This document shows, piece by piece, positions 1 through 23,532 of a stretch of DNA of 64,000 bases; the first letter of the stretch is position 1, and every line of letters begins with the position of its first letter. The stretch is taken from assembly GCA_050250895.1 (NCBI GenBank), contig JBFWNU010000004.1, positions 353,362 through 417,361 on the forward strand, written 5' to 3'. The notes under the pieces are model-generated. The model saw only the letters and a list, made by a program, of their open reading frames with translations. It was not told the DNA's origin and ran no database searches. Origin of the DNA: Vulcanimicrobiota bacterium. Lineage in GTDB: Bacteria > Vulcanimicrobiota > Xenobia > Xenobiales > JADMJV01. The position numbers and the translations under genes were made by a program.

Positions 1-1
1 G

Positions 2-283
2 CCGCAATTTTTCAACATTTTGCTCGGAGAGATGTCTTTCGTCGGCCCCCGTCCGTTTCCCGAGTACCACCTTCGGGTTTTCGACAAACCGTTCCGTCGC
101 CGTCGTCAGAGCGTCTTGCCCGGACTCACCGGCCTGTGGCAAATCCGCGTGCGTAGTGGCGGAGACATCAGGGCTCAGCGTTATTGGGACCTCAAATACC
201 TGGTGGGGCGCTGCCTGATGCTCGACCTGCGCATCTTGTGCGAGACTCCCCTGGTCGTGATCCGGGCCAAAGGCGCCGTCTAG
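2..283 (+). CDS. Polyprenyl-phosphate sugar phosphotransferase (bacterial sugar transferase family), C-terminal fragment; 5' end outside window
   Basis: Frame is open to the window edge; translated tail carries sugar-transferase signature segments SFVGPRP and PGLTGLWQIRVRSG; stop at 281-283. Confidence 0.85.
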   Translation, partial: PQFFNILLGEMSFVGPRPFPEYHLRVFDKPFRRRRQSVLPGLTGLWQIRVRSGGDIRAQRYWDLKYLVGRCLMLDLRILCETPLVVIRAKGAV

Positions 284-369
284 GCTCCGGCAGCGAACCC
301 CGTATCAGCGGGCTTTGCGGCCGGCAGGCTGGGAGGAGATCGTTATTCAACCAGTAATAGTTAGCCCCC

Positions 370-2886
370 ATGCGCAGAGCACGATGCCGTCCCAGCGAAA
401 ACTCTAGCTTCCGGACTCTGGCTGGATTGTTGGTATGCTTGGTCCTGCTGGCCCTGGTGGCTCCAGTCTGGGCTCAACCGACTCCCGTGCCTCCCGCACA
501 GGATGGCCAGCCGCAGCCGTCCCAACAGCAACTGGAGGAAGACTCCGCCGACCTTGGCCAGACGGGCGAAATCCAGGTCCCCCCTCCCCCGGTCACCCCC
601 ACCCAGACGGTGCGAGAACTCAATGCGCATCCTGGCCCGACGATCGGCTCGCCGGACACCTTTCGCAACTCGAGGGTGCTCGACGCCCTCGAGCAATCGC
701 GAGTTCAGCGCCAGCAGCGCCAGACCCAAGAGCTCGAGCGCTTCGGCTCTTCGTTCTTCGAGCGTTCCCAAGAAGAGTTGACCCGGGCCGATGAGGCGAC
801 CGTGCCGGATGACTACAAACTAAGGTCAGGCGACGAACTCAATGTCACCACCTACAACATCAGAGGCGGAGAATCGGTCGACATTTCCCGGGTGGACGAG
901 TCTGGGGTTGTCCAGCTGACGGGAGTTGGCCCGGTGCCTGTGGCGGGCCTCACCCGGCCTCAGGCAGAGACACGCTTCAACAGCCTCATCTCTCGCCAGT
1001 TTCCCAACATGCGGGTGAGGCTTACCTTTACCCGCGTCCCAAAAATTCGCGTTTTCGTGCTCGGAGAAGCCAATCGCCCCGGCGGGTACCTGATGAATCC
1101 CACGGCCACGGTGCTCGACGCCTTGCTCCACGCCCGCGGGCCTTCGCGAGCGGGCAGCTACCGCCGCATCGAATTGCAGCGAGCCGGCCGCACCGTGGCC
1201 ACCTTCGACCTCTACGACCTGTTGATTTTCGGGCGTACGGCCTCGCCCCGATTGCAAAACGGCGACCGAATCTTCGTGCCCCTGGTGGGCAACGAAGTCT
1301 CGATTACCGGCGAGGTGTTGCGCCCTGCCGTTTATGAACTGCGACAAGAGAAGACGCTGGCTCAGCTGATCTCGCTCGCCGGAGGCTTGCGTCCCGAAGC
1401 CTACTCTCCGCGGGTCCAGATCGAGCGAATCGATGACCACAACCTGAGAAAGCTCATCGATATTCCCTTCGACAAGGCAGCCACGACCGCTCTTCGGCCC
1501 GGTGACTTCATCATCATCGAGCCGGTGCTAGAGAACCTGACCAATGGCGTGTTCGTGTCGGGGGCTGTCGAGCGGCCCGGATTCTATGAGATCAAAACCG
1601 GTGCCTCGACGGTGGCCGGGGTTATTCGTCAGGCCCAGGGTTTGACCAACGGCGCCTACGCCCAACACGCTGAGATTTTTCGCTACGTAAGGACGTTTGG
1701 TCCCCACGGAGAAACGCTGATCGACCGCTCGGCCCCCCAGGAGGTCATCGGCTTTGATCTGGCCGCCGCTCTCAGCGGCGATTCGACCAACGACCTGGCC
1801 CTGCTTCCAGAAGACGTGATTGTCGTCTCGACCCGCGAAGAGGCCCTGGTCGACCGCGAGCGAGTCCGTATTCAGGGCGAGGTCAAAAACCCCGGCGAAT
1901 ACCCGCGCTTTGGCAAGATGCGGGTGCGCGATCTGGTCAACCTGGCCGGTGGCATCACCCCTGAGGCCTCGGTCCAGGCCGAGATCGCTCGCCCTGGTCC
2001 CATGGGTAAGATCGAGTTCATCCCGGTCGATCTGGGGGGCGCCATGGAGGGGGGGACCCTCGCCAACAACCCGGTCCTGCAAGACCTGGATGTGCTGATC
2101 GTCAGGCCGCAGCTGCGAGCCAAGCGATGGCCGGCCTCGATCACCTTGCTGGGAGAGTTCAAGCATCCCGGCGTCTATGTCGTCGATCCTGACCGCGAGA
2201 CGCTAGCCGACGTGATCGCACGGGCCGGTGGCCTCACCGCTGAGGCTTACCCGAAGGCAGCGGTGCTCACCCGCCGACGACCCGAGATTCTCTCCACCGA
2301 CCAGAGCGGCCTGGCGGCCATCGTCTTCAAAAACCTGCAAGAGGTAGCGCGCCAGATCGCTCTGGTCGAAAATGCCCGCCTCTCCCGGCAGCCGACCGCC
2401 GCCGGCGCGGCCCGGGTGGACTTTAGAGCCTTGACCGAGGCAGCTACGGCCCCGCCCCGAGAACTGGACTTCGTGCTCACCTCGGGCCGGATCCCCATCT
2501 CGCTGGGCGAGATTCTGGCCTCGGGCCAGGGAGATCCGCGGGTCAAAGAAGGCGACGTGCTCTTTGTTCCGCAAGAGCCTGAAATGGTCATCGTCTCCGG
2601 GGCGGTCGTCATGCCCACCCCGCTGGTCTGGCGCCCAGGCCGCCACGCCGAGGAATACATTGACCAGGCGGGTGGATTTGCCGAGGACGCGGCCACGGAT
2701 CGCGTGCTCATCCTGAGGGTCAGCGGGCAACTGGTCAAAGAGGGGGACGCCGGGGTCTTAGAACCCGGAGACCTCATTCTCGTCCCGCCTCGAGCGCTGA
2801 TCTCCGAGCCCGACGCCTTCGAGCGTTTCTTGAGCGTGCTCCAGGTCATCGCCAACGGAGCCTTTGTCTGGCGGGCCTTCCGATGA
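370..2886 (+). CDS. Polysaccharide export protein, Wza/KpsD-like, with multiple SLBB-type repeats
   Basis: 838-aa ORF with ATG at 370; N-terminal hydrophobic signal-like segment (LAGLLVCLVLLALVAPVWA); Poly_export-like segment (YKLRSGDELNV) followed by several repeats of the GEV..PG.Y / ..AGG pattern typical of SLBB domains. Confidence 0.8.
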   Translation: MRRARCRPSENSSFRTLAGLLVCLVLLALVAPVWAQPTPVPPAQDGQPQPSQQQLEEDSADLGQTGEIQVPPPPVTPTQTVRELNAHPGPTIGSPDTFRNSRVLDALEQSRVQRQQRQTQELERFGSSFFERSQEELTRADEATVPDDYKLRSGDELNVTTYNIRGGESVDISRVDESGVVQLTGVGPVPVAGLTRPQAETRFNSLISRQFPNMRVRLTFTRVPKIRVFVLGEANRPGGYLMNPTATVLDALLHARGPSRAGSYRRIELQRAGRTVATFDLYDLLIFGRTASPRLQNGDRIFVPLVGNEVSITGEVLRPAVYELRQEKTLAQLISLAGGLRPEAYSPRVQIERIDDHNLRKLIDIPFDKAATTALRPGDFIIIEPVLENLTNGVFVSGAVERPGFYEIKTGASTVAGVIRQAQGLTNGAYAQHAEIFRYVRTFGPHGETLIDRSAPQEVIGFDLAAALSGDSTNDLALLPEDVIVVSTREEALVDRERVRIQGEVKNPGEYPRFGKMRVRDLVNLAGGITPEASVQAEIARPGPMGKIEFIPVDLGGAMEGGTLANNPVLQDLDVLIVRPQLRAKRWPASITLLGEFKHPGVYVVDPDRETLADVIARAGGLTAEAYPKAAVLTRRRPEILSTDQSGLAAIVFKNLQEVARQIALVENARLSRQPTAAGAARVDFRALTEAATAPPRELDFVLTSGRIPISLGEILASGQGDPRVKEGDVLFVPQEPEMVIVSGAVVMPTPLVWRPGRHAEEYIDQAGGFAEDAATDRVLILRVSGQLVKEGDAGVLEPGDLILVPPRALISEPDAFERFLSVLQVIANGAFVWRAFR

Positions 2887-2903
2887 TTGCCATAGAGGGC
2901 TAG

Positions 2904-4178
2904 ATGGACCGCCCGCTGCGCCGGATTCATGGCATCGTGTGTATCATGTACATCGCCGATGCCTTCTTCTCGCTTTATGACGAGCCCGGCGTCAGTCTCA
3001 CCGAGAACAATCCGGCCAGCCGAGTTCTCTGGATTTTCTTGATCGTTTCGTCTTTGTTGCTGGCCCTGCCGCGACCCGGCCGCACGAGCCGCATGTTCTT
3101 CAACAACCTGGCGTTGACCGGCTTCGTCCTGCTCACCGTGGCCTCCAGTGCCTGGTCTATTCTGCCGGGCACGACCTTCAGAAGAGCCGTCCTGGCAGTC
3201 TTCACGCTCCAGTTTGCCAGCCACCTTCGGGCCAACTTCAAGCAAGCCGAAGTGTGGGAGTTGCTTCGCACCGCCTTGCGATGGTCACTGCTTTTGTCGG
3301 TGGCGGTTTGCCTGGTCAGACCCGACATCGGCGTGGACTCGCAGTACCACGTGGGGCAGTGGCGAGGTCTATTTCCGCACAAGAATAGTCTGGGCCGGGC
3401 GGCGGCGCTGCTGGGTAGTCTGGCCCTCGGGCACTGGCTGAGTGGGGGCAAAGGTCGCTTCAAGATCGGGCTCGATATGGTATTGTGCCTGGGCTTGATG
3501 GTACTGGCCTTTTCCAGGACCGGTCTGGCCTCGTTTTTGGGAGTCGCAGCCGTGCTGGTAGTACTGCGCATGCTGCAGAACACCAAAGGTCACGACCGCT
3601 GGTTGGCCGCCAGCGCCATTCCGATAGCCACCGGCGTGATCCTGATCGTCTCCGGGCTGATGCTGTCCCTGCTGCCGAGCAACCTGTATGAGGACAAGCT
3701 CCTCACGGGCCGAATCCCCCTCTGGTACACCCTCACCCTGATGGCCCTGGAGAGGCCGCTGCAAGGCTACGGCTATGGCCAGACGATTTTGAGTCCGGCC
3801 GGGCACGGTCTAGAGATCTGGGCCCGGGTGGGGTGGGAAATGGGTAGCGCCCACAACGCCATGCTCCAGGTTCAGCTCGACCTGGGCGTGGTGGGATTGG
3901 CTTGCTATCTGATGGTCTGGCTCACCATCTTCGCTCGGGTGGGTCGCAACCTCACCAGGCCGCGCAGTCTGGTCGAAGTAGGAGTTTGCCTGATGGTGTT
4001 CGTCAACGGCTTGACCGAGATCGGCTCGGCCGCCCTCTCGACCCTTTGGGGTCTTGCCTTCATCCTGCTGGCGTTATCCGACAGGCAAGTCACTCATGAT
4101 AGCGGTCCCGGCCCGGCTCTGCCGGTCGCGTCGCCGCCCTCCGCCTCCCCAGCAGATCTCGAACGGCGTGAGGAATGA
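2904..4178 (+). CDS. O-antigen ligase/polymerase family membrane protein (Wzy-like)
   Basis: 424-aa polytopic hydrophobic ORF; Wzy_C-like segment GLFPHKNSLG ... FSRTGLASF; sits between exporter and glycosyltransferases. Confidence 0.75.
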   Translation: MDRPLRRIHGIVCIMYIADAFFSLYDEPGVSLTENNPASRVLWIFLIVSSLLLALPRPGRTSRMFFNNLALTGFVLLTVASSAWSILPGTTFRRAVLAVFTLQFASHLRANFKQAEVWELLRTALRWSLLLSVAVCLVRPDIGVDSQYHVGQWRGLFPHKNSLGRAAALLGSLALGHWLSGGKGRFKIGLDMVLCLGLMVLAFSRTGLASFLGVAAVLVVLRMLQNTKGHDRWLAASAIPIATGVILIVSGLMLSLLPSNLYEDKLLTGRIPLWYTLTLMALERPLQGYGYGQTILSPAGHGLEIWARVGWEMGSAHNAMLQVQLDLGVVGLACYLMVWLTIFARVGRNLTRPRSLVEVGVCLMVFVNGLTEIGSAALSTLWGLAFILLALSDRQVTHDSGPGPALPVASPPSASPADLERREE

Positions 4179-4887
4179 GACTCCACGGTTCGAGAAGGTA
4201 ACGCTGCCAGACCCGACCCGGTGTCATCAACAGACGGGCCAGCCATTCGAGGCCCAACCGTCCGGTCCAGCGCGGTGGGGTGGGAATCTCGCCCGTGAGG
4301 TAGTCAAAGATGGCGCCGACCGTGATCGAGACGCAAGGCTCCAGGCGATCGAGATTGTGGCCCAGCCAGGTTTCCTGGCGCGGCATGCCCATTCCCACCA
4401 GCAGCACATGGGGCTGGAAAGCGTTGATATCGCTGACCACCCGCTCGTTGACCCGGGGGTCCTGGGGGTCGAAATAGCCGCTGGCGGCCCGAAATTCCAG
4501 GCCGGGGTAGCGGCTGGCTACATAGTCCTGGCTGCGTTCCACGACCTCCGGGCGTCCGCCCAGAGCGTAAACCCTCCACGATCGGTTCAGAGCCCGCTCG
4601 AGCAACGGGCCGATCCAGTCCAGCACGGTGATTCGATGCTCGGCGCGCAGCGGTTCTCCTAACCAGCGCCCCCAGAAGATCAGCGGCATGCCGTCAATGA
4701 AGCAGGAGTCGGCGCGGGCATAGACCGAGCGCATCGGTTCACAACGATGAAAATGGTAGATGCTGTGGAGATTGTGGTTCACGATGAGGTGGGGCGACGC
4801 ACCGACCCCCCGTGAGACATCCTCCAAGAACTCGTCGAGGTTCATCGGGGTCACCTTCACGCCCAGCAACTGGCAGTCTCTAGGCAT
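4090..4887 (-). CDS. WecB/TagA/CpsF-family glycosyltransferase
   Basis: ORF track frame 4090..5118 trimmed to internal ATG at 4887, 2 nt after the stop of the upstream GT4 gene; conserved segments VYALGG and GMGMPRQE; the upstream 77 codons are Pro/Arg/Ala-rich and overlap the neighbouring gene. Confidence 0.8.
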   Translation of the reverse strand: MPRDCQLLGVKVTPMNLDEFLEDVSRGVGASPHLIVNHNLHSIYHFHRCEPMRSVYARADSCFIDGMPLIFWGRWLGEPLRAEHRITVLDWIGPLLERALNRSWRVYALGGRPEVVERSQDYVASRYPGLEFRAASGYFDPQDPRVNERVVSDINAFQPHVLLVGMGMPRQETWLGHNLDRLEPCVSITVGAIFDYLTGEIPTPPRWTGRLGLEWLARLLMTPGRVWQRYLLEPWSLIPHAVRDLLGRRRAATRPAEPGRDRYHE

Positions 4888-6070
4888 GGCCCCGCCTCGG
4901 CCCAAGAAGGCCTCGCTCCTCGAGAGCGTCGAGGACCTGTTGGACGCGGGAGCGCCAGCTGTGCTCAGACTCCACCAGTTGCTGGCCCCGGCGCCCCATC
5001 TCGCTCCAGCGCTCCTGGCCGGCGCAGGCCTCTCGAAGGGCGTTCTCGAGGCTGCCGGCGGTGTGGGCCTCGAAGACGAATCCGCATTCAGCCCTGGCCA
5101 CCAGGGCTCGGGCATCACGAAAGTCCGAGACGATCACGGGCAGCCCGGCGGCTAAATACTCATATAACTTCAGAGGCGAATGATACATCCCGCCCCAGGC
5201 CAGATCTCGTTGCCCCGAGAAGCCAAGATCGCAACCGGCCAGGATCGCTCCAACCTGGCTGGGCGGCACCGGCCCCAAAAACTTGACCTGCTCAGCCAGC
5301 CCCAGCTTGACACTCAACTGCTGGCACTCGCGCAAGCCTACGCCACCTCCGGCCACGACCAACCCATAAGCAATTCCGTCCTGACGAAGCCGGTCCATGG
5401 CTTCGAGTAGAGCACACAGATTCTGCCATCGCTGCACCTGCCCCACGAAACAGATGGTGGGCCCGGCAAAGAAACGACTCGCCTCGGACCCGACTTGCAG
5501 GCGCGAGGCGTTCACCCCATTGGGCACCACCAGAATCTTCTGGTCGGGGATATCGAAGGTGTCGGCCACCAGCGCTTTGAGCTGCTCGCTGACACAGATG
5601 ACCAGATCGGCGGCCGCCAGGGATGTTCTCTGAATCCGGTGAGCCAGGTCGACCAGTTCGAGGGTTCGATACTCGTCACGCGACTCGAGGTGATGAATGC
5701 CGTTGACCTCGACCACCAGGCAGCCGCGGCGACCCAGCCCTTTCAAGAGACAACCGATGGCCTGGAAACTGCCACTTCGTTCGTAAAACACGTCGGCCTC
5801 GCCTAGCATGAAATAGGAGCAGAGGGCGTTGACAGGCCACAAGGCCAATCTGACGAAGTCTGAGGCAAGTCGCGCCGCTCTCGACTTCTGCAGATACTCC
5901 TGGGGATTTCCGCGATTGGGCAAGAAATCGCCGGCGATGTATCGCCGCGTCTCCCAGGCTAGCTCCTCAAAGCCAGCCAGGACTCCCAGGATATGGGTGC
6001 GAGCCCCGTATTGGGGACAATTCTCTCGCAGGGAGACACTCGGGGCTCCGGAAAGATAGGCCAAACGCAA
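4880..6070 (-). CDS. Glycosyltransferase family 4 (group 1 GT)
   Basis: 396 aa; GT-B C-terminal domain pattern (ICFVGQV ... GLVVAGGG ... LPVIVSD ... ECGFVFE); tightly packed with neighbours. Confidence 0.85.
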   Translation of the reverse strand: MRLAYLSGAPSVSLRENCPQYGARTHILGVLAGFEELAWETRRYIAGDFLPNRGNPQEYLQKSRAARLASDFVRLALWPVNALCSYFMLGEADVFYERSGSFQAIGCLLKGLGRRGCLVVEVNGIHHLESRDEYRTLELVDLAHRIQRTSLAAADLVICVSEQLKALVADTFDIPDQKILVVPNGVNASRLQVGSEASRFFAGPTICFVGQVQRWQNLCALLEAMDRLRQDGIAYGLVVAGGGVGLRECQQLSVKLGLAEQVKFLGPVPPSQVGAILAGCDLGFSGQRDLAWGGMYHSPLKLYEYLAAGLPVIVSDFRDARALVARAECGFVFEAHTAGSLENALREACAGQERWSEMGRRGQQLVESEHSWRSRVQQVLDALEERGLLGPRRGHA

Positions 6071-6073
6071 GGC

Positions 6074-7462
6074 TTAGCGCTCCTCGTCGAGTCGAAGAGT
6101 GACTTCAGCCCCGCCGGCCTTCAGGGTGGTCTTGAGACGCTGGCTGCGGCCGCCGGCCTCGACGACGATCTCATATTCGCCGAGAAACCCAGGAACGGTG
6201 AACTCACCCTGGCTATCGGTGACCCCGTCAGCCCTGGTCCACCAATCGTTATAGACGAGCTGCTTCCAGGTCGCCAGACCCGGCTTTTCGGTGCCATCCT
6301 CACGATAGAAGGGTGAATTGTGGAGCCAGTGCGAGGGCCCGTCGAACCCCCAGACGACGAAGCCGGTCGTGGCCGGGCTGCTGAAGCAGGCGGTCATGTA
6401 GTCGCGCAGGTAATCGGCTTCGAGCTGCTCCAGCTCGGGACCGGGACGGGTCGTTGGAGCCGTCCGCCAGCGTTGCTCGAAGGTGCCCGTCGCTTGCGAG
6501 GCTTGCAGGCGCACGTCGTATTCGGTGACCTCGAGGGCCACGCCCAGGCTCCCGAGTCGCTCGAGCCGGTCGAGGACCTGGGGAATCCCGGCCAAGGAGC
6601 CGATATGGTGAGACTGCAGGCCCAGTCCGTCCACCGGCGCCTGGCGCTTCTGCAACTCTTTCATCAGCTGGGTTACGGCCACCAGCCGGGACTCTTTCAG
6701 GTCACCGCTACAAAGCTTATGCTCGTTGACGAATAGGCGAGCCTCGGGCGCGAATTGGTGGGCCGCCACCAACCACTCGGCCGCCCCCGCCGCGCCCAGG
6801 CGGGCGAACAGGTCACTGTTATCCGAGGGTTCGTTCAAGACGTCCCAATCATCGATGGCTGCAAACGCCGGATCGCCGATGGTCTGCTCGAGATGGTGCC
6901 GCACTTGCTGCCGGATCTGCTCATCGGACGTCCCCGCCAACTCCTGGGGAGTCGCCTTCTTGCGGCCCCGGTTCCAGACCAGCACATGACCCCGCACCCG
7001 AAAATCGTTGTCCTTGAGCCATTTGAGGGCTGAAAGCGAGGAGACCTTTCTCTTCTGGACCTTCTCGGGAGTGTCCCAGGTCCAGTTGTAGAAGACATTC
7101 AGGGTCGCATAATTGAAGAGTTCTTTGAGACGCTCACGGTAGACCTCACTCGGCTGGCCGTCGGCCATCAACAGTTCGGCGTTGACCTGAGTCCCGAAAC
7201 GATACGCGTGCCCGGTCATGCGCACCCGGACCCTGGCCCCGCTCAGCGGTCCCGCCTCGTCCTCGACCTTGAGCTTCAGGTCGGCTTTGCGATACTTCTC
7301 GATTCTAGCCTGGGCGGGCCCACGCCAGTCGGCCCGCGGATCGTGCCCCTCGTAGTCGTGGGGAGGATCAGAACGAAGCCCCAGCACCAGACCGGTTAGC
7401 GACAGACCGGCCAATAAAACCAGGGCTCCCAGGCTCAAAGCACGCCGCGGCCCAAAGCTCAC
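6074..7462 (-). CDS. Secreted glycoside hydrolase, GH10-like catalytic domain with C-terminal beta-sandwich extension
   Basis: N-terminal signal-like segment (LSLGALVLLAGLSLTGLVLG); acid/base region DDWDVLNEP and nucleophile region LEVTEYDV matching the GH10 WDVVNE / ITELD pattern; 4-bp start/stop overlap with Wzz-like gene. Confidence 0.75.
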   Translation of the reverse strand: MSFGPRRALSLGALVLLAGLSLTGLVLGLRSDPPHDYEGHDPRADWRGPAQARIEKYRKADLKLKVEDEAGPLSGARVRVRMTGHAYRFGTQVNAELLMADGQPSEVYRERLKELFNYATLNVFYNWTWDTPEKVQKRKVSSLSALKWLKDNDFRVRGHVLVWNRGRKKATPQELAGTSDEQIRQQVRHHLEQTIGDPAFAAIDDWDVLNEPSDNSDLFARLGAAGAAEWLVAAHQFAPEARLFVNEHKLCSGDLKESRLVAVTQLMKELQKRQAPVDGLGLQSHHIGSLAGIPQVLDRLERLGSLGVALEVTEYDVRLQASQATGTFEQRWRTAPTTRPGPELEQLEADYLRDYMTACFSSPATTGFVVWGFDGPSHWLHNSPFYREDGTEKPGLATWKQLVYNDWWTRADGVTDSQGEFTVPGFLGEYEIVVEAGGRSQRLKTTLKAGGAEVTLRLDEER

Positions 7463-8685
7463 AGGTCGGGCTCTTTCGCATCGAGCTCGAGGCGCGCTCG
7501 GTCCAACCCCTCTCGAAAGAGGGCCCAGGCCAGCGCGAGCATGAAGCCAAAGAGAAAGCCGGCCACGGTCTTCAAAGCCCCATAGCGCCTGACCGGCTCG
7601 ACGGGAACAATCGGTTCGTCGATGATACGGTAGGGCGAGGTCACGCTCTTTCCCTGCTCGATCATCTGGGCCACCTGCAATTGCTGAACATACTGCTGGA
7701 AAATGTGCTCGCGAATGTTGACCTCGCGGGTGAGTTCCCGGTAGCGTTCGGCCTGACGAGGCGTTTGCTTGAGCAGTGAGGCCTGGGCGGCCGATTCGGC
7801 CTGCAACTCGAGCACTTTGGCCTCGAGCCCTGCCTCGCGTGATTTGAGGGCCATCTGCACTTCAAGATTACCGGACGAGGCGAGTTGACTCCTCACCGCT
7901 CGAAGCTCGGCTTCGGCCAGGATGCGCTCGGTGTTGAGCGTGGTCAGGGCGGAGAACTCGCTCTGGCTTTGCGTCTCGAGGGGAACCACGATCTCTTCGC
8001 TCTCGGCAAACTCGCGTAGCTCTCGGATGGCGGCCTCGAGCTCTTGCTTGCTCTGGCGCGTCTCGTCTTCGAGAAAGGAAGAGCGCGACTGGGTCTCTGT
8101 CTGCAGGCGGGCCTCGAGCAGTTGAAAGAACTCGTCGGCGATGGCCTGGGAGAGTTCTGCTGAATCGGTTTCGACGGTGAAACGGACGGGGGCCAGCAGG
8201 GGGGGATGAGGGCCTTCGACTTCGATGGAATCGCGCAAGATCTCCAGGACTTCATCCCGGTTCAAACCGGCGTCGATCTGCCTTCCTAAGAACCTCTCGT
8301 CGGTGGCCAGAGAGAGTTTCTCCATCACGGTCAGGTGCAGGGTCTCGCTTTCGAGGATTGCCGAGACATATTCACTACCGCCGGTGCTCAGACCGAACAT
8401 GGCCGCAAACTGCTGAGCCTCGGGCGACATGGTCATGCTCACGGGGCCGGTCACGAAAACGGAGAAACCGCTGGCGTAATGGCGGGGCGCCAATAAGACG
8501 ATGGCCGCCACCAGACCCGCGCACAGAAAAGAAGCGAGGAACGTAAAACGCCACCACCGCCTGACAAAGGCAAGGACCATCGAGGGTGTGATCTCGTCAC
8601 GGGTCTCGACTGGAGGTGGGGTTCTTTTGGCAGTATCGGTCAATCTCGTCCTTTGGCCGGGTTTGGCGCCAGCGACGAGTATCAT
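7459..8685 (-). CDS. Polysaccharide chain-length determinant (Wzz-like co-polymerase, no kinase domain)
   Basis: 408 aa; N-terminal TM (FTFLASFLCAGLVAAIVLLA) and C-terminal TM (TVAGFLFGFMLALAWALF) flanking a long helical, coiled-coil-like periplasmic region; no Walker motifs. Confidence 0.7.
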   Translation of the reverse strand: MILVAGAKPGQRTRLTDTAKRTPPPVETRDEITPSMVLAFVRRWWRFTFLASFLCAGLVAAIVLLAPRHYASGFSVFVTGPVSMTMSPEAQQFAAMFGLSTGGSEYVSAILESETLHLTVMEKLSLATDERFLGRQIDAGLNRDEVLEILRDSIEVEGPHPPLLAPVRFTVETDSAELSQAIADEFFQLLEARLQTETQSRSSFLEDETRQSKQELEAAIRELREFAESEEIVVPLETQSQSEFSALTTLNTERILAEAELRAVRSQLASSGNLEVQMALKSREAGLEAKVLELQAESAAQASLLKQTPRQAERYRELTREVNIREHIFQQYVQQLQVAQMIEQGKSVTSPYRIIDEPIVPVEPVRRYGALKTVAGFLFGFMLALAWALFREGLDRARLELDAKEPDL

Positions 8686-8770
8686 TGTTCATAAGCTTTA
8701 GCCGCTCCTGCCATCGAAAGCCGAGCAGAGCGAGAGGACCTGGTCGCGCCAGGAGGAAGCGGGAGCGACC

Positions 8771-9667
8771 ATGAGGCCGCCTAACTTCTTCGTGATCGGT
8801 GCCCCCAAGTGCGGAACGACTTCCCTGGTGGCCTGGCTATCGGACCACGAGCAGGCGTATCTGTCGCCTTCCAAGGAGCCACGCTACTTCGATCGCGACC
8901 TGAAGACCCGGTTTCGCCTCAACAAAAGCCAGTACGCGGCTCTCTTCCAGCAGGTGCGTGAAGAGCACCGAGCCATCGGAGAGGCGACGGTCCTCTACCT
9001 GTATTCAGAAGAGGCCGTGGACAACATCGAACGCGAACTGCCGGGGTCTCGCTATATCGTGATGCTGCGTAACCCCATCGACCTCGCCTACTCTCACCAT
9101 GAGCAGATGACGCTGCATCTGGGCGAGAATCTGCTGGATTTCGAAAGCGCCTGGCGAGCGAGCCCGAGAAGACGGCAGGGAAAGGGCGTCAATCCTTTCT
9201 TTCTGGCCGAGCCCCGGCTGTTGGACTATCAACGTCTGGGTCAATTGGGAAGTCAACTTGAGGCGGTCTTGCGCAAAGTCGAGCCAGAGCGCGTGCTGGT
9301 CCTGTTCCTCGAGGACCTGGTGAGAAATCCGAGAGCCGAGTATGTCAAAGTCCTCGGCTTTCTAGGCTTGGAGGACGATGGCAGAACGAGCTTTCCCAAG
9401 GAAAATCCGGCCAAGCGCGTCCGTTCACGCTATCTGCAACGCCTGATCACGATGCTCATGAAACTCGAGGTGGTGGTCCGGGCCCGACTCGGATTTGCCC
9501 CCGCCAGCTCAAGACCGCTCAGGGCTCTTAACCTTTGGAACAAGACTCCCCATCCCCGAGAGCCGATGCCTGCCCGGCTCAGGTCGGAACTCGCTCTGCA
9601 TTTTCGGGACGAGGTCGCAAAACTCGAGCAGTTGACCGGTCGCGACTTGAGCCACTGGCACCGCTAA
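8771..9667 (+). CDS. Sulfotransferase (PAPS-dependent family)
   Basis: 298 aa; 5'-phosphosulfate-binding loop FVIGAPKCGTTSL near N-terminus, later RNP.D..YS segment; AGGAGG and GGGAG purine-rich stretch upstream of ATG 8771. Confidence 0.85.
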   Translation: MRPPNFFVIGAPKCGTTSLVAWLSDHEQAYLSPSKEPRYFDRDLKTRFRLNKSQYAALFQQVREEHRAIGEATVLYLYSEEAVDNIERELPGSRYIVMLRNPIDLAYSHHEQMTLHLGENLLDFESAWRASPRRRQGKGVNPFFLAEPRLLDYQRLGQLGSQLEAVLRKVEPERVLVLFLEDLVRNPRAEYVKVLGFLGLEDDGRTSFPKENPAKRVRSRYLQRLITMLMKLEVVVRARLGFAPASSRPLRALNLWNKTPHPREPMPARLRSELALHFRDEVAKLEQLTGRDLSHWHR

Positions 9668-10896
9668 GCTGCTTCTGAGCGGTACCTCGCCCAGACCGCC
9701 ACGGCCAGATAAGCGGCCAGGAACGCCTCGCAGGCAAGCGTGGCCGACACGGCCCCCTTCCACGAGTAGAGCGGGATCAAGTAAGCATTGAGGCCGACGT
9801 TGAGGACGGCCGTGAGCAGCATGGCTTTGCCACGGCCACGTTGCAGGTCTGCGCCGGTGAGAACAGAGCCGGCCAGCTCCTGGGCGATTTTCAGGCCGGG
9901 CAACAGGCAGAGCAGGTGGACCACCGGGATGGTATCCGAGAACTTCGGCCCTAAAAGGATGGGAATTACCGGAGCGAGCAGCCACAGAAGCGCCGCCGTT
10001 CCGCCAGCGTAGGCCAGGGCCGCTGGAACCAGCCCCCGAGTCAACTTGAGTGCTCCCGCCACTCCCTCGGCCCCGGCCTGAAAGTATCTTCGATACATGG
10101 TACGATTCAAGGCCAACAGGGGGGTCAGGCTGACCTGAACGATCCGATAGGCCGCCCCATACAGTCCCGCCGCATCGGCCGTGGCCAGCCGCAGCAACAT
10201 CGCTTTATCGGCATCATTGTTGATCTGTTGGCACGCCTGGGTCATCGAGAAATCGAACCCATCCGACCGGATCACCGCAAAGCTAGACCACTCGATGGCG
10301 GGGGCGTTGAAATGAAAGCGAATCAGTCCATAGGCCAACAAAGCGGACAACAGTCCGGCCGTGACGTAGAAGTTCAGGTAAAACGCCGGGGTGGGCGATT
10401 CGGCCAGGCAGACGAAGACGATCACGGCCACCAGGCGAAAGGCGAAGGGCAGGTGATTGACCAGAGCGGCCATCTTCATGTTGCCGACCGCGTTAAAGGC
10501 CAGCGAAAACCCCTCCGCGATCTTGGTAAAGAACAACTCGCTAAACCCGGTGGCCAGCACGATGGCCAGCCCGAGTTCAGCCGGAAAGAGCCAACGACTG
10601 GCGCAGCCGAGCCCCAGACACAGCGCCAGGGCAGCCACGAAATTCAGCAAGACCATGCGCCCGAGGCAAACCTCTACGCTAGTTTGAGTTCGGGAGACTT
10701 CCCTGACCATGAGCTGAGGCGTGCCCAGACTGGAAAAGGGAGCAAGAATCCCAAAGATTGCGATGACCCCGATTAAGACACCGTAGTCTGACGGCCCAAA
10801 GGTTCGCGCCAGCAACAGGAAGTAAATGGATCGTCCCACCACGTTCGCCACCTGCCCTAAAAGGTTCCAGGTCATCTCGCGCCGACGACTGGTCAT
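9664..10896 (-). CDS. Polysaccharide flippase (Wzx, MOP superfamily)
   Basis: 410-aa highly hydrophobic ORF with about 12 predicted membrane helices; position inside polysaccharide locus; 4-bp overlap with downstream gene end. Confidence 0.8.
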   Translation of the reverse strand: MTSRRREMTWNLLGQVANVVGRSIYFLLLARTFGPSDYGVLIGVIAIFGILAPFSSLGTPQLMVREVSRTQTSVEVCLGRMVLLNFVAALALCLGLGCASRWLFPAELGLAIVLATGFSELFFTKIAEGFSLAFNAVGNMKMAALVNHLPFAFRLVAVIVFVCLAESPTPAFYLNFYVTAGLLSALLAYGLIRFHFNAPAIEWSSFAVIRSDGFDFSMTQACQQINNDADKAMLLRLATADAAGLYGAAYRIVQVSLTPLLALNRTMYRRYFQAGAEGVAGALKLTRGLVPAALAYAGGTAALLWLLAPVIPILLGPKFSDTIPVVHLLCLLPGLKIAQELAGSVLTGADLQRGRGKAMLLTAVLNVGLNAYLIPLYSWKGAVSATLACEAFLAAYLAVAVWARYRSEAA

Positions 10897-12038
10897 GGGA
10901 CGCGGGGGCCACTCCTTCTAACCTCGTCGTAGATTCTTTCCAGCTTACGAGTCTGGGCCTCGAGGTCAAAGTTGGCCACGGCATGGTCGCGGGCCGCTCG
11001 ACTCATGGTTTGCCAGAGCCTGTCGTCGGCGAGCAGTCGCCGACCGAACTCGACGGCCCGCGGGACCGCGTCTTGAGGGAACAGAAAGCCAGTGCGCTCC
11101 TCGGACACCCCTTCGGGGATACCTCCGAGTCGGGTGGCCAAGACCGGCGTGCCGCAGCTTTGGGCCTCGATAAAGACCAGGCCGAAAGCCTCGACCGCTC
11201 CCGAGGGCATCGCCCGACTGGGACCGATCAGGGCTTTGGAGCGCGCCAGCATGGCCCGGATCTCGTCATCGGGCAGGACGCCCATGAAGTCGGCGTTGCA
11301 TCCCAGCGACTCGGCTAGCAGCGTCAGGGCGGGTCGTTCGGGACCATCGCCCACAATCTTCAACCGTAGATCGGCAAAGGTTTGCTGCAGCCGGGCCGCG
11401 ACCCTGATGGCCACATCGCACCCCTTATCGGGCACCAGCCGCCCCACAAAGGCCAGCCAGTTCTGTCTGGGCTCGCTCTCGGGCAGGGGCGCAAAGACGT
11501 CGGTGTCCACACCGATGTAGTGCGTCTCGAGCAAGGCCGGGGAGAAGCCCTTGCGGATGAGTTCGGTTCGCAGCGCCTCGGACACGCACAAAATCCGACA
11601 AATGGAGCCCGGAAGTCGCCATTTGTTGAGGGCATAGTAGCGACCGAGCCACCCCACTTCTTGGAGCAGAGAATGGCGAAAAGCGTCATAACCGTGATAG
11701 GTCACGACCAGGGGCAGGCCGAGAGCCCTGGCCAGGGGCAAGGCCAAAAGGCCATTGGGACCGAAGTGGGCGTGGATGATGGCCGGGTTGCGTCCTCTCA
11801 ACTCGGCCAGCAGGCGGTGGCTGGGTAGTCCCAACCCGAAGGCCAGAATCCCCAGCCACGATTCGTGCTCGCACAGCAACACTGATTCGGCCGTGAGCCA
11901 GTCTCTTTGCCCGCCCGGTCGCAGCCCCAGGAAAAGAGGCCGGTAGTCACGCAGCGCCTCTCCCTGTCTCTTGATAAACGCCTGGGAAAAGGGCAACAGT
12001 CTATCGGTGAAGATTATGGCGGTGGGTCGGGCGCTCAA
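10893..12038 (-). CDS. Glycosyltransferase family 4; start codon uncertain (TTG at 12038 proposed)
   Basis: C-terminal 380 aa of the 10893..12656 frame are a clean GT4 (IIHAHF ... AFVGRLVPDKG ... FGLVFIEAQSCGTPVL); the N-terminal ~200 codons are Arg/Pro-rich and lie antisense-overlapped with the GT1 gene; no in-frame ATG until deep in the domain; TTG at 12038 overlaps the GT1 stop as TTGA. Confidence 0.7.
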   Translation of the reverse strand: MSARPTAIIFTDRLLPFSQAFIKRQGEALRDYRPLFLGLRPGGQRDWLTAESVLLCEHESWLGILAFGLGLPSHRLLAELRGRNPAIIHAHFGPNGLLALPLARALGLPLVVTYHGYDAFRHSLLQEVGWLGRYYALNKWRLPGSICRILCVSEALRTELIRKGFSPALLETHYIGVDTDVFAPLPESEPRQNWLAFVGRLVPDKGCDVAIRVAARLQQTFADLRLKIVGDGPERPALTLLAESLGCNADFMGVLPDDEIRAMLARSKALIGPSRAMPSGAVEAFGLVFIEAQSCGTPVLATRLGGIPEGVSEERTGFLFPQDAVPRAVEFGRRLLADDRLWQTMSRAARDHAVANFDLEAQTRKLERIYDEVRRSGPRVP

Positions 12039-13270
12039 GGTTGCTCGAGTTGTACACCGGAGACCCCAGCTCCTGGATTCTGGTCGAGCAGGACCTGGCA
12101 GGTCAGGTCGGTGGCATTGGCCGCAACGGCGCCAGGACGGTCCTGGGCCAGGAGGCGGGCCAGCCTGGTTCGCATGCCCGACAGGCCGGTCGAACCCAAA
12201 TTCAATCCGGCGCCGAGAGCCTCGAGCCGGGCCGCGTTGTCGGGCTGGTCGTGGGCCATCGGGACCAGCAACTGTGGGATCCCGGCCGCCAGCGCCTGAG
12301 CCGCGGTGCCGACTCCGCCGTGGTGAATCACCACTCTGGCCCGAGCAAACAAGGCGCCAAAGGGGGCCGTGGCCACATGGAAAACATCGTCCTCGGGCGC
12401 CGTGGGAGGCAGGTGAGGCGATACCAACACCACTCGCAGGTTCAGACTGCGGCAAGTGGCCACCGCCTGCCGAAAGCTCTCTTGACCGTGCCTTTGCCCG
12501 GTGCCAAAGGTGACGACGGCCGGAGCGGGACCGGCCGCCAGAAATGCTTCGAGTTCGGACTGCAGCGATTCGTCGTCGCCCAACAGAAAGCCGGTCTGAA
12601 ACCCGGGCCTGGGCCAATCGGCGGCGGGGGCGGCGAACCACCGAGGAAACAACCACAGGTGAATGGCGCCGGCCTGCATCCAGGCGAGCACCTTGGGGGC
12701 CGGGGCCAGGCCTGCGCTCATCCGCACTTCACGGAGGGCGGGCTCTACCAGGCGGTCTATGTTGACTTCGTTGAGCCGGTAGAAGAGCCAGCGAATCCAA
12801 CGAGGCATGGGGGTCACCCACTCCCAACCGCAGATCAGGGGCGTGGCCTCGAGGCTGACGATGCCGGCCGGCGCAAACCAGAGGCAGAAACGGGGCCAAT
12901 CCAGCAACTCTTGCAGGATGCGTGTGGCCGGAAGGGCCAGATAGGTCGAGACCAACCTCCACTCCTGGGCCCGGGGCAGCGAAAGTCCCAGCTCTACGAT
13001 CGGCCGGGTCGCTGGCACCATCAAGCCTTGCAAGACCACTCCGAAAAACCGGCGCGGATGCCAAAAATCGGGGTTGGATAGGGCGGCATCGTAGAGTTCT
13101 CTGGAGAGCACCGAGGTAAAGTCCAGTCCGGCGGCTTCGGCCAGGTCCTGGTAGGGCTCGGGCCCGGCTAGAATCACCGTGTGCCCCCGACGGCATAGCT
13201 CGCCGCCCAGCCGAATGCACGGCCTGATGTCTCCGCCGGTTCCCAGGGCGACCAACAGAAAATTCACCAA
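12035..13270 (-). CDS. GT1-family glycosyltransferase (MGT/UDP-glycosyltransferase-like)
   Basis: 411 aa; N-terminal GTGGD, C-terminal nucleotide-sugar motif VVIHHGGVGT ... HDQPDNA typical of GT1 enzymes. Confidence 0.8.
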   Translation of the reverse strand: MVNFLLVALGTGGDIRPCIRLGGELCRRGHTVILAGPEPYQDLAEAAGLDFTSVLSRELYDAALSNPDFWHPRRFFGVVLQGLMVPATRPIVELGLSLPRAQEWRLVSTYLALPATRILQELLDWPRFCLWFAPAGIVSLEATPLICGWEWVTPMPRWIRWLFYRLNEVNIDRLVEPALREVRMSAGLAPAPKVLAWMQAGAIHLWLFPRWFAAPAADWPRPGFQTGFLLGDDESLQSELEAFLAAGPAPAVVTFGTGQRHGQESFRQAVATCRSLNLRVVLVSPHLPPTAPEDDVFHVATAPFGALFARARVVIHHGGVGTAAQALAAGIPQLLVPMAHDQPDNAARLEALGAGLNLGSTGLSGMRTRLARLLAQDRPGAVAANATDLTCQVLLDQNPGAGVSGVQLEQP

Positions 13271-13366
13271 CCCAGGGCTGCCTGTTCGTTAGCGGTCTCA
13301 TTCGCAGGCCTGGCTCGGTGGGGGTCGAAGGTCGCCCCCAGTCCACAGGTAGGCCGGCGATCCCAG

Positions 13367-23458: not shown

Positions 23459-23532
23459 TGATGCTTACCAGTTCTTGGCGTCGCGCCCGACTAGCCCGGT
23501 GTCGACCGGCATCGCCCAGCGCCGGGATGACG

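What the first reader, a model, noticed from the sequence alone, without database searches (positions are those of the whole stretch)
8771..9667. Sulfotransferase embedded on the opposite strand inside the polysaccharide operon
Seen: PAPS-binding loop GAPKCGTTSL in a gene flanked by the Wzz-like gene and Wzx, and the only plus-strand gene in this block. Established: this family transfers sulfate from PAPS to carbohydrate or other hydroxyls. Inference: the polysaccharide or glycolipid product is sulfated, which is uncommon for bacterial surface polymers.
Basis: partly seen in the sequence, partly recalled or inferred. Interest (0 to 1): 0.45.

Follow-up and report, generated by a model that had tools for sequence, protein, structure and literature searches.

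The report
Sulfotransferase in an exopolysaccharide gene cluster
This is an intact sulfate-adding enzyme gene in the surface-polysaccharide gene cluster of an uncultured soil-phylum bacterium (Vulcanimicrobiota), so the secreted sugar polymer is probably sulfated, which has been predicted from gene clusters in other bacteria and shown chemically in a few.

Summary
ORF 8771-9667 (+) encodes a 298-aa protein with GAPKCGTTSL at residues 10-19. It passes the Pfam cut-offs for PF13469 and PF00685, and the AlphaFold model (pLDDT 95.9) has a sulfotransferase fold. The closest solved structures are the uncharacterised bacterial protein 3rnl, then heparan-sulfate 3-O- and N-sulfotransferases. Polyketide-synthase, tyrosine and small-molecule sulfotransferases match less well.

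The gene lies between a Wzz-like co-polymerase and Wzx in a Wzx/Wzy locus of a Vulcanimicrobiota MAG. Its closest relatives (54-59% identity; the two named genomes are Chloroflexota) sit in a partly orthologous cassette: Wzx-ST-ST-Wzy-GT4-GT4-WecG, with GH10 in some. One such locus also has a sulfate-permease-like gene and a bifunctional PAPS synthase directly upstream. Of 80 related loci in named genomes, 58 contain a Wzx-like gene and 1 contains a PKS.

Against a strain variant, dN/dS is 0.10. The variant keeps the same convergent layout.

Best reading: a cytoplasmic, PAPS-dependent O-sulfotransferase that modifies the lipid-linked repeat unit before flipping.

Not settled: whether this genome can make PAPS. 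None of the roughly 73 kb examined encodes a PAPS-synthesis gene.

Verdict: new member of a known kind, of modest interest.

The parts
8771..9667 (+). Sulfotransferase gene (298 aa). PAPS 5'-phosphosulfate-binding loop GAPKCGTT at aa 10-17 (K13). Putative catalytic base E36 in KEPRYFD. 3'-phosphate-binding motif R100...S108 in MLRNPIDLAYS.
   Evidence: Passes both Pfam cut-offs. AF2 pLDDT 95.9. dN/dS 0.10 against a strain variant.
8581..8770 (.). Divergent intergenic region between the co-polymerase gene and the sulfotransferase gene. It presumably holds the sulfotransferase's own promoter. SD-like AGGAGGA at 8751-8757 and GGGAG at 8761-8765.
   Evidence: Sequence read directly. The sigma-70 consensus scan found no site. 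AGGAGGA is conserved in strain variant L096.
9664..10896 (-). Wzx-type flippase (Polysacc_synt), convergent with the sulfotransferase gene. The two stop codons overlap.
   Evidence: PF01943, 6e-18.. The same arrangement is present in L096.
7459..8580 (-). Polysaccharide co-polymerase (Wzz-like, GNVR domain). The public gene call is 373 aa; the ORF extends to 8685.
6074..7462 (-). GH10-family glycoside hydrolase inside the cluster. It also occurs in the related cassette of L005/L006.
4880..6070 (-). GT4 glycosyltransferase (GT4a), 36-40% identical to its cassette counterparts.
4090..4887 (-). WecG/TagA/CpsF-family glycosyltransferase, 46-49% identical to its cassette counterparts.
2904..4178 (+). 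Wzy_C-family polymerase/ligase, 27-31% identical to its cassette counterparts.
370..2886 (+). Wza-type outer-membrane polysaccharide export protein (Poly_export plus 5 SLBB domains).
1..283 (+). 3' end of the initiating sugar-phosphate transferase gene (Bac_transf, 204 aa). The window starts inside this gene.
10893..12038 (-). GT4 glycosyltransferase (GT4b), translationally coupled to Wzx by a 4-nt overlap. 33-36% identical to its counterparts in four of the five cassette loci compared.
12035..13267 (-). GT1-family (RhlB/YjiC/EryCIII-like) glycosyltransferase, coupled to GT4b by a 4-nt overlap. It marks the boundary between the polysaccharide genes and the neighbouring PKS lipid genes.

Best explanation
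The gene encodes a soluble, cytoplasmic, PAPS-dependent carbohydrate O-sulfotransferase that belongs to the Wzx/Wzy-dependent exopolysaccharide (or capsule) pathway encoded around it.

Proposed mechanism:
- The P-loop-like GAPKCGTT loop (K13) binds the 5'-phosphosulfate of PAPS.
- R100 and S108 bind the 3'-phosphate.
- E36 deprotonates a sugar hydroxyl, which attacks the sulfuryl group in line.

The acceptor is most likely the undecaprenyl-diphosphate-linked repeat unit. That unit would be built by Bac_transf, WecG and the two GT4 enzymes at the inner face of the membrane. The sulfated unit would then be flipped by Wzx, polymerised by Wzy under control of the co-polymerase, and exported through Wza. 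The GH10 enzyme may trim the polymer.

Shown: family membership, intact motifs, fold, purifying selection, and conserved linkage to polysaccharide genes and, in relatives, to PAPS synthesis genes. Inferred: the acceptor, the timing before flipping, O- rather than N-sulfation, and that the cell supplies PAPS.
For: Family and fold:
- Both Pfam models score above their curated cut-offs.
- The match to sulfotransferase 3rnl is full-length, and the match to heparan-sulfate 3-OST-3 aligns K13, E36, D41, R100 and S108 with that enzyme's PSB lysine, EPHFFD glutamate and RDP...S motif.
- These positions are invariant or near-invariant in 55 homologues.
- The AF2 model has pLDDT 95.9 and pTM 0.92.
- Foldseek ranks 3rnl first (2.4e-17). 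Only heparan-sulfate 3-OST and NDST sulfotransferase domains follow (TMq 0.59-0.65). CurM/OLS PKS sulfotransferase domains (TMq 0.46), TPSTs and cytosolic SULTs (about 0.4) score lower.

Location:
- There is no hydrophobic segment (maximum KD19 of 1.32) and the protein is net basic.

Context:
- The closest relatives (54-59% identity) lie in Wzx-ST-ST-Wzy-GT4-GT4-WecG cassettes, with GH10 in some.
- WecG (46-49%), GT4a (36-40%), GT4b (33-36% in four of five loci), Wzy (27-31%), GH10 (33%, one locus) and Bac_transf (36-42%, two loci) match the window's proteins.
- L005/L006 carry a Na_sulph_symp/CitMHS permease and an ATP-sulfurylase/APS-kinase fusion directly upstream of Wzx.
- Among 80 loci from named genomes across many phyla, 58 have a Wzx-like ORF. 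It lies directly upstream on the same strand in 27 of the 71 loci with room for it. Ten loci have PAPS-synthesis ORFs within 10 kb, 22 have a second sulfotransferase, and 1 has a PKS.
- More distant relatives on plasmids sit in polysaccharide clusters. In Sulfitobacter pontiacus the gene is two genes from sat/cysC. In S. meliloti pSymB the cluster has three sulfotransferases.

Selection:
- dN/dS is 0.10 against a strain at dS 0.38, the same as for Wzx. The arrangement is conserved.
Against: - No PAPS-synthesis or sulfate-uptake gene was found in the window or in the 73 kb of the contig that could be read. The rest of the genome could not be examined.
- The window has one sulfotransferase where the related cassettes have two.
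- The window's Wzx is not detectably orthologous to the cassette Wzx by tblastn.
- The gene is transcribed separately, and convergent with Wzx.
- A PKS/acyltransferase/GT1 lipid cluster lies only 2.4 kb away, so a glycolipid acceptor is not excluded.
- No member of this exact subfamily has a biochemically defined acceptor. Its best PDB relative, 3rnl, is listed only as 'Sulfotransferase'.
Confidence: 0.7

Rival explanations
1. The sulfotransferase acts on a glycolipid made by the neighbouring lipid cluster. That cluster comprises a GT1 RhlB-like glycosyltransferase, a stand-alone HHxxxDG acyltransferase, an SDR, a PfaA/HglE-like PKS, a thioester reductase and an OlsC-like hydroxylase. The product would be a sulfated glycolipid, loosely analogous to mycobacterial sulfolipid-1.
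For: The lipid cluster begins 2.4 kb from the sulfotransferase gene. GT1 is translationally coupled to GT4b and Wzx through 4-nt overlaps. The 422-aa protein carries HHSCCDG, and its relatives hit the Condensation, PapA_C and WS_DGAT models weakly. GT1 relatives are named rhamnosyltransferase subunit B, a lipid glycosyltransferase.
Against: None of the closest sulfotransferase loci has a PKS, and only 1 of 80 genome loci has a KS within 10 kb. GT1 and the PKS have no counterpart in the orthologous cassettes. In another Vulcanimicrobiota MAG the GT1 homologue sits beside polysaccharide genes with neither a PKS nor a sulfotransferase. Structurally the protein is closer to polysaccharide sulfotransferases than to PKS-associated ones.
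Confidence: 0.1
2. It sulfates an acceptor unrelated to the locus, such as a protein tyrosine, a small molecule or a signalling oligosaccharide. Its position in the cluster would then be incidental.
For: Sulfotransferase families are promiscuous in acceptor type. The gene is a separate transcription unit on the opposite strand. NCBIfam has no specific model for it.
Against: Linkage to Wzx and glycosyltransferases recurs across phyla. Cassette orthology argues the same way. TPST and cytosolic SULT structures match much less well (TMq about 0.4). The arrangement is conserved in a diverged strain.
Confidence: 0.07
3. The gene is intact but idle in this organism. It was acquired with the cassette, and the host does not make PAPS, so the polymer is not sulfated.
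For: No PAPS genes were found in about 73 kb around the gene. The closest named relatives are in another phylum, Chloroflexota. The gene has the lowest GC (59.2%) and GC3 (71.6%) in the locus.
Against: dN/dS of 0.10 over dS 0.38 shows sustained purifying selection, equal to that on Wzx. Only 10 of 80 related loci keep PAPS genes nearby, so their absence from the neighbourhood is the usual state.
Confidence: 0.08

Closest known systems
PDB 3rnl, sulfotransferase from Alicyclobacillus acidocaldarius (its PDB entry names it only 'Sulfotransferase')
   Same: The sequence match is full-length (E 7.8e-28, 27% identity) and it is the best structural match (Foldseek 2.4e-17, TMt 0.87). It has the same PKCGT loop, KE-P motif and RNP...S motif, and the same C-terminal extension.
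   Different: The tools gave no acceptor or function for 3rnl, so the match gives fold and family only.
Heparan-sulfate 3-O-sulfotransferases (3-OST-1/3/5) and the NDST1 sulfotransferase domain (animal polysaccharide sulfotransferases)
   Same: They share the PAPS-binding fold. The PSB-loop lysine, the glutamate of E-P-x-F-F-D (the catalytic base in 3-OST, from established knowledge of that family), and the R...S 3'-phosphate motif all align. They are the top characterised structural neighbours (E 6e-10 to 1e-7, TMq 0.59-0.65).
   Different: Identity is only 16-21%. The histidine of EPHFFD is arginine here. The bacterial protein has an extra C-terminal helical region of about 90 residues. The animal enzymes are Golgi-lumenal and act on a finished polymer, whereas this protein is cytoplasmic.
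XssA and XssE of the synechan (xss) cluster, Synechocystis PCC 6803 plasmid pSYSM (Maeda et al. 2021, PMC8205485)
   Same: These are sulfotransferases inside a Wzx/Wzy cluster that also has a WecG-family GT, GT4, a co-polymerase and a sugar transferase. The xss cluster yields a chemically verified sulfated exopolysaccharide, and loss of xssA abolishes EPS accumulation. XssA aligns at 24% identity over 203 aa, E 4e-15.
   Different: The relationship is distant; XssE is barely detectable (E 1e-4). This is a different subfamily with different regulators (XssQ/R/S are absent here) and a different phylum.
Sulfated capsule and surface-polysaccharide clusters of Proteobacteria and Actinomycetota: Vibrio sp. 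KMM 8419 (PMC11641403), S. meliloti pSymB SMb21237/43/49 with nodP2Q2 (PMC5498481), Actinoplanes missouriensis wps-1 (PMC13390465)
   Same: All are polysaccharide clusters that contain one or more sulfotransferases, often with PAPS-synthesis genes. The Vibrio paper calls this combination a hallmark of sulfated polysaccharide synthesis. The pSymB relative (31% identity) follows a gene annotated 'lipopolysaccharide biosynthesis protein' and precedes a GT4 and an O-antigen-ligase-family gene. wps-1 also combines sulfotransferases with a glycoside hydrolase, Wzx, Wzy and Wzz.
   Different: The Vibrio capsule uses an ABC transporter route. Sulfation in S. meliloti pSymB and in Actinoplanes is predicted, not shown. 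The window has no PAPS genes nearby.
Stf0 with PapA1/PapA2/Pks2 (mycobacterial sulfolipid-1 pathway; recalled from memory, not tested here)
   Same: The window contains the same kinds of enzyme within 16 kb: a sulfotransferase, a PKS and an HHxxxDG acyltransferase.
   Different: No homology to Stf0 was tested. The comparative context of the window's sulfotransferase is polysaccharide, not PKS.

Membership tests
PAPS-dependent sulfotransferase superfamily (Pfam clan of PF00685/PF13469) | Score above the curated family threshold | tested here: met
   PF13469 scores 51 bits (cut-off 27) and PF00685 scores 42.8 bits (cut-off 22).
PAPS-dependent sulfotransferase superfamily (Pfam clan of PF00685/PF13469) | 5'-phosphosulfate-binding loop (GxxKxGT[TS]) after the first beta strand | tested here: met
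   G10-A-P-K13-C-G-T-T17. G10, P12, K13, C14 and G15 are invariant in 55 homologues. In the model, strand 6-10 is followed by helix 16-24.
PAPS-dependent sulfotransferase superfamily (Pfam clan of PF00685/PF13469) | 3'-phosphate-binding motif (Arg at the end of a strand, Ser in the following helix) | tested here: met
   R100 is invariant. S108 is the family consensus residue at that position. Both align with the R and S of VVRDPVTRAIS in 3-OST-3. In the model, strand 94-99 is followed by helix 102-115.
PAPS-dependent sulfotransferase superfamily (Pfam clan of PF00685/PF13469) | Sulfotransferase alpha/beta fold | tested here: met
   AF2 pLDDT is 95.9. In the Foldseek PDB search, 93 matches reach E<=1e-3 and the 50 best listed are all PAP/PAPS-type sulfotransferase-fold proteins.
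PAPS-dependent sulfotransferase superfamily (Pfam clan of PF00685/PF13469) | PAPS-dependent sulfuryl transfer activity | not testable with these tools
   This needs an enzyme assay.
Carbohydrate (polysaccharide) sulfotransferases of the heparan-sulfate 3-OST/NDST type | Catalytic glutamate in the E-P-x-F-F-D segment | tested here: met
   E36-P-R-Y-F-D41 aligns with E-P-H-F-F-D of 3-OST-3. K35, E36 and P37 are at least 90% conserved. The catalytic role of the glutamate is taken from established knowledge of 3-OSTs.
Carbohydrate (polysaccharide) sulfotransferases of the heparan-sulfate 3-OST/NDST type | Closer to carbohydrate than to small-molecule, protein or PKS sulfotransferases | tested here: met
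   Foldseek gives 3-OST/NDST E 6e-10 to 1e-7 (TMq 0.59-0.65), CurM/OLS 2e-6 (0.46), and TPST/SULT at or above 1e-5 (about 0.4).
Carbohydrate (polysaccharide) sulfotransferases of the heparan-sulfate 3-OST/NDST type | Demonstrated saccharide acceptor | not testable with these tools
   Only genomic context is available.
Sulfated-polysaccharide biosynthesis cluster (sulfotransferase plus assembly genes plus PAPS supply, as defined in PMC11641403) | Sulfotransferase inside a complete assembly/export gene set | tested here: met
   Bac_transf, Wza, Wzy, WecG, GT4 x2, GH10, PCP and Wzx surround the gene.
Sulfated-polysaccharide biosynthesis cluster (sulfotransferase plus assembly genes plus PAPS supply, as defined in PMC11641403) | PAPS-synthesis genes in the cluster | tested here: not met
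   None was found in the window or in contig positions 2685-75721. They are present in the related cassette L005/L006 and in 10 of 80 related loci.
Sulfated-polysaccharide biosynthesis cluster (sulfotransferase plus assembly genes plus PAPS supply, as defined in PMC11641403) | PAPS-synthesis genes anywhere in the genome | not testable with these tools
   The rest of GCA_050183855.1 could not be read. The genome is not among the loci returned by the genome-contig scan.
Synechan-type XssA/XssE sulfotransferases | Close sequence relationship to XssA or XssE | tested here: not met
   XssA is 24% identical over 203 aa (E 4e-15). XssE gives E 1e-4 over 124 aa. They belong to the same superfamily but a different subfamily.

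The most novel reading that the evidence does not exclude
The polysaccharide genes and the adjacent PKS / HHxxxDG-acyltransferase / GT1 / reductase / hydroxylase genes form one super-locus. It would make a sulfated glycan or glycolipid carried on a polyketide-derived lipid. That would be a sulfoglycolipid or lipid-anchored sulfated polymer in Vulcanimicrobiota, with no described counterpart outside the mycobacterial sulfolipids.
Probability: 0.1. Interest if true: 0.6.

Novelty: new member of a known kind. Interest (0 to 1): 0.3.

Why it matters
Recent papers still state that sulfated polysaccharides in bacteria are reported only from cyanobacteria (PMC8205485, PMC13390465). Structures from Vibrio and Cobetia show otherwise (PMC11641403, PMC11766843).

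This gene adds Vulcanimicrobiota (Eremiobacterota/WPS-2), a poorly cultured phylum, to the lineages predicted to make such polymers.

The comparison also shows two things that were not described in any paper found in the searches run here. Most of the sulfotransferase cassette is orthologous across phyla. The sulfotransferase subfamily is widespread and is often placed directly after Wzx.

Sulfated polymers hold water and cations, which would suit life in dry or oligotrophic habitats. The enzymes are also of interest for making sulfated glycans.

The finding is a prediction from sequence. It does not open a new kind of system.

Tried and rejected
- **Invertible element.** I looked for inverted repeats flanking the oppositely oriented gene. 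Only short, imperfect pairs lie inside coding sequence (best 20 nt, 85%), so there is no evidence for one. A diverged strain has the same orientation.
- **Second sulfotransferase, PAPS synthase or sulfate permease in the window.** None was found with phmmer or with a family HMM.
- **Extending the view of the contig.** Look-ups with Wza and with the 552-aa ORF failed. For Wza, translating the non-ATG start codon literally probably explains the failure. The Wzy anchor added nothing new. The 539-aa ORF added about 8 kb beyond the window's end, with no PAPS genes.
- **Sigma-70 promoter and terminator scan around the gene.** No promoter-like site, and no terminator-like site between the convergent genes.
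- **NCBIfam.** No model matches the sulfotransferase.
- **The Vulcanimicrobium alpinus description.** It does not contain the words 'sulfate', 'polysaccharide' or 'PAPS'.
- **The 587-aa 'GT4' ORF (10893-12656).** It is an over-extension. The public calls and Pfam show two genes, GT4 (10893-12038) and GT1 (12035-13267).
- **Word-indexed homologue search for the 422-aa neighbour.** It found only the protein itself. The exhaustive search found 1252 remote relatives.
Full report
**1. The observation**

The ORF at 8771-9667 on the plus strand is real. It has an ATG start, a TAA stop and 298 codons. Its product begins MRPPNFFVIGAPKCGTTSL, so GAPKCGTTSL is residues 10-19.

PF13469 gives 51 bits against a cut-off of 27. 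PF00685 gives 42.8 bits against a cut-off of 22.

The word-indexed search of the large protein collection found 1119 homologues at E<=1e-3.

The gene is flanked as described. A GNVR-domain polysaccharide co-polymerase (Wzz-like) lies at 7459-8580 (-). A Polysacc_synt flippase (Wzx) lies at 9664-10896 (-).

'Only plus-strand gene in the block' is correct for 4090-13267. The same locus also has plus-strand genes: the end of a Bac_transf gene (to 283), Wza (370-2886), Wzy (2904-4178) and a 422-aa gene (13367-14635).

The sulfotransferase's stop codon overlaps the Wzx stop codon (CTAA at 9664-9667). The gene is divergent from the co-polymerase gene. It is therefore a separate transcription unit embedded in the cluster, not a member of the operon.

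**2. Source**

The window is identical over its first 19 kb to NCBI contig JBFXAX010000029.1 of GCA_050183855.1. NCBI names the protein 'MAG: sulfotransferase [Vulcanimicrobiota bacterium]'. That phylum was formerly Eremiobacterota/WPS-2.

**3. The protein**

The best solved relative by sequence is 3rnl, a sulfotransferase from Alicyclobacillus acidocaldarius (E 7.8e-28, full length). Next is human heparan-sulfate 3-O-sulfotransferase 3A1. In that second alignment:
- K13 matches the lysine of the PAPS 5'-phosphosulfate loop.
- E36-P-R-Y-F-D41 matches E-P-H-F-F-D. By established knowledge of 3-OSTs, that segment holds the catalytic glutamate.
- R100 and S108 match the 3'-phosphate-binding R and S.

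In an alignment of 55 homologues, G10, P12, K13, C14, G15, R100 and P102 are invariant. K35, E36 and P37 are at least 90% conserved.

An AlphaFold2 model built on that alignment has mean pLDDT 95.9 and pTM 0.92. Foldseek against the PDB ranks the matches as follows:

| Match | E-value | TM-score |
|---|---|---|
| 3rnl | 2.4e-17 | TMt 0.87 |
| Heparan-sulfate 3-OST-1/3/5 and NDST1 sulfotransferase domains (next 20 hits) | 6e-10 to 8e-7 | TMq 0.59-0.65 |
| CurM and olefin-synthase PKS sulfotransferase domains | 2e-6 to 5e-6 | TMq 0.46-0.47 |
| Tyrosylprotein and cytosolic small-molecule sulfotransferases | 1e-5 or weaker | TMq about 0.4 |

It is not met.

The protein has no hydrophobic segment (maximum Kyte-Doolittle 19-residue mean of 1.32). 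It is net basic, with 47 K+R against 37 D+E. It is therefore taken to be cytoplasmic, which is where PAPS is made.

**4. Selection**

A strain variant (L096) has the same gene at 89.7% nucleotide and 93% amino-acid identity. It shows the same convergent 4-nt overlap with Wzx. dN/dS is 0.10 at dS 0.38, the same as for Wzx. The gene is maintained by purifying selection, and the arrangement is stable.

**5. Context in relatives**

The closest homologues outside this lineage (54-59% identity) lie on metagenome contigs L003-L008 and in two Chloroflexota MAGs (Thermoflexus L012, Anaerolineae L013). They sit in a recurring cassette: Wzx, two tandem sulfotransferases, Wzy, two GT4s and a WecG-family transferase. 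Some also have GH10 and Bac_transf.

The window's proteins match their cassette counterparts as follows:

| Protein | Identity to cassette counterpart |
|---|---|
| WecG | 46-49% |
| GT4a | 36-40% |
| GT4b | 33-36% (four of five loci) |
| Wzy | 27-31% |
| GH10 | 33% (one locus) |
| Bac_transf | 36-42% (two loci) |

The window's GT1 and PKS have no counterpart in those loci. The window's Wzx is too divergent for tblastn. phmmer links it to the L005 Wzx at 2e-8.

The window's sulfotransferase is the orthologue of the Wzx-adjacent copy (54-59%) and not of the second copy (45-48%). No second sulfotransferase exists in the window.

In L005/L006 a Na_sulph_symp/CitMHS permease and a 576-aa ATP-sulfurylase/APS-kinase fusion sit immediately upstream of Wzx. 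That is sulfate uptake and PAPS synthesis next to the cassette.

I analysed 80 loci from named genomes. They span Chloroflexota, Acidobacteriota, Gemmatimonadota, Proteobacteria, Cyanobacteria, Planctomycetota, Verrucomicrobiota, Bacteroidota and candidate phyla. My ORF and HMM analysis found:
- a Wzx-like ORF in 58 of 80 loci;
- that ORF directly upstream on the same strand in 27 of the 71 loci with room for it;
- a convergent Wzx, as in the window, in 3 loci;
- PAPS-synthesis ORFs within 10 kb in 10 loci;
- a further sulfotransferase in 22 loci;
- a ketosynthase in 1 locus.

More distant plasmid-borne relatives tell the same story. In Sulfitobacter pontiacus (37% identity) the gene is in a polysaccharide cluster, two genes from a bifunctional sat/cysC. 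In S. meliloti pSymB (31%) it is in a Wzx/Wzy-type cluster with three sulfotransferases. Zou et al. predicted that cluster to make a sulfated surface polysaccharide (PMC5498481).

**6. Best explanation**

This is a PAPS-dependent carbohydrate O-sulfotransferase of the cluster's Wzx/Wzy pathway.

The enzyme and PAPS are both cytoplasmic, and the gene family is so often placed directly after Wzx. I therefore infer that it sulfates the undecaprenyl-diphosphate-linked repeat unit before flipping. Wzx, Wzy, the co-polymerase and Wza would then handle a sulfated unit.

Family, motifs, fold, selection and linkage are shown. The acceptor, the timing, O- versus N-sulfation and the PAPS supply are inferred. 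Confidence is 0.7.

**7. Rivals**

(a) *A glycolipid acceptor.* A lipid cluster starts 2.4 kb away. It comprises:
- a GT1 related to RhlB/YjiC;
- a 422-aa protein with an HHSCCDG motif, whose remote relatives hit Condensation, PapA_C and WS_DGAT weakly;
- an SDR;
- a PfaA/HglE-like PKS with the domain order KS-AT-ACP-KR-DH;
- a thioester-reductase-like protein;
- an OlsC/LpxO-like hydroxylase.

This recalls sulfolipid chemistry. However, the sulfotransferase's relatives are not PKS-linked. The GT1 homologue in another Vulcanimicrobiota MAG sits beside polysaccharide genes with no PKS and no sulfotransferase. Confidence is 0.1.

(b) *An unrelated acceptor.* Confidence is 0.07.

(c) *An idle gene for lack of PAPS.* No PAPS genes occur in contig positions 2685-75721. 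That is also the usual state in related loci, and selection argues against idleness. Confidence is 0.08.

**8. Comparison with what is known**

Sulfotransferases in bacterial polysaccharide clusters are established or predicted in several systems:
- Synechocystis synechan (XssA/XssE, PMC8205485). XssA is a distant relative at 24% identity, E 4e-15. XssE is barely detectable.
- The sulfated capsule of Vibrio sp. KMM 8419, which has cysNDC and sulfotransferases in its cluster (PMC11641403).
- Cobetia marina (PMC11766843).
- S. meliloti (PMC5498481).
- Actinoplanes missouriensis wps-1, which also pairs sulfotransferases with a glycoside hydrolase (PMC13390465).

The window's gene is therefore a new member of a known kind, in a phylum where this had not been noted in the papers found here.

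It fails one 'hallmark' feature, PAPS genes in the cluster. Whether it meets the weaker requirement, PAPS genes somewhere in the genome, could not be tested.

**9. Verdict**

The finding is an ordinary but sound functional prediction with some comparative interest. That interest lies in a cross-phylum cassette, a recurrent Wzx-sulfotransferase pairing, and evidence that the gene family is far more widespread than the chemical literature suggests. Interest is 0.3.

Noticed in passing
window 12035-24676: A lipid (glycolipid or ester) cluster lies next to the polysaccharide genes. It holds a GT1 (RhlB/YjiC-like), an HHxxxDG acyltransferase, an SDR, a 2236-aa PfaA/HglE-like PKS (KS-AT-ACP-KR-DH), a thioester-reductase-like protein and an OlsC/LpxO-like hydroxylase. 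It resembles heterocyst-glycolipid or 'secondary lipid' loci.
   Followed up: partly
window 13367-14635 (+): A 422-aa protein with an HHSCCDG motif. The word-indexed search found only the protein itself. Exhaustive HMMER found 1252 remote relatives of about 450 aa, with weak Condensation, PapA_C and WS_DGAT hits. One relative carries an Asp_Arg_Hydrox fragment. It appears to belong to a poorly annotated family of stand-alone acyltransferases.
   Followed up: partly
window 9664-9667, 14632-14635 and 4090-4178: Both plus-strand genes embedded among minus-strand genes (the sulfotransferase and the 422-aa gene) end with stop codons that overlap the stop of a convergent gene by 4 nt. Wzy and WecG converge with an 89-nt overlap. 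No terminators fit between them, so antisense read-through is possible.
   Followed up: no
window 6074-7462 (-); L005 16509-17942: A GH10 (xylanase-family) hydrolase with a CarboxypepD_reg-like tail is part of the polysaccharide cluster. It recurs (33% identity) beside the related cassette. It may process or trim the polymer.
   Followed up: partly
L005/L006 4937-8614: A Na_sulph_symp/CitMHS permease and a 576-aa ATP-sulfurylase/APS-kinase fusion sit directly upstream of Wzx in a related cassette. A UDP-glucose dehydrogenase and an epimerase lie further upstream.
   Followed up: yes
window 9664-10896 compared with L003-L013: The window's Wzx is not detectably similar by tblastn to the Wzx of the otherwise orthologous cassettes. 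The sulfotransferase is also inverted relative to the usual Wzx-then-sulfotransferase order. This suggests local rearrangement or flippase replacement.
   Followed up: partly
L093 (GCA_046327835.1), 1-11221: Another Vulcanimicrobiota MAG has a different polysaccharide locus: Wzz, Wza, GT2, GT4, Wzx, a Rieske oxygenase, an ABC exporter and a GT1. It has no sulfotransferase and no PKS. Surface-glycan loci therefore vary within the phylum.
   Followed up: no
window 49074-52141 (+): A beta-helix/NosD-like protein of 589 aa is followed by a BrxC/BrxD-family ATPase (Pfam 3e-118; public call 50837-52141). No other BREX genes were seen nearby.
   Followed up: no
window 55168-60191: A second glycan-related group: two GNAT acetyltransferases (one FemAB-like), a YdjC-like deacetylase, a GT2 and a DUF2079 membrane protein with TPR.
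   Followed up: no
window 32192-34444 and 37805-40264: A dual-receiver GGDEF diguanylate cyclase and a multi-GAF histidine kinase lie about 23-30 kb from the polysaccharide cluster. They are candidates for c-di-GMP control of matrix production.
   Followed up: no
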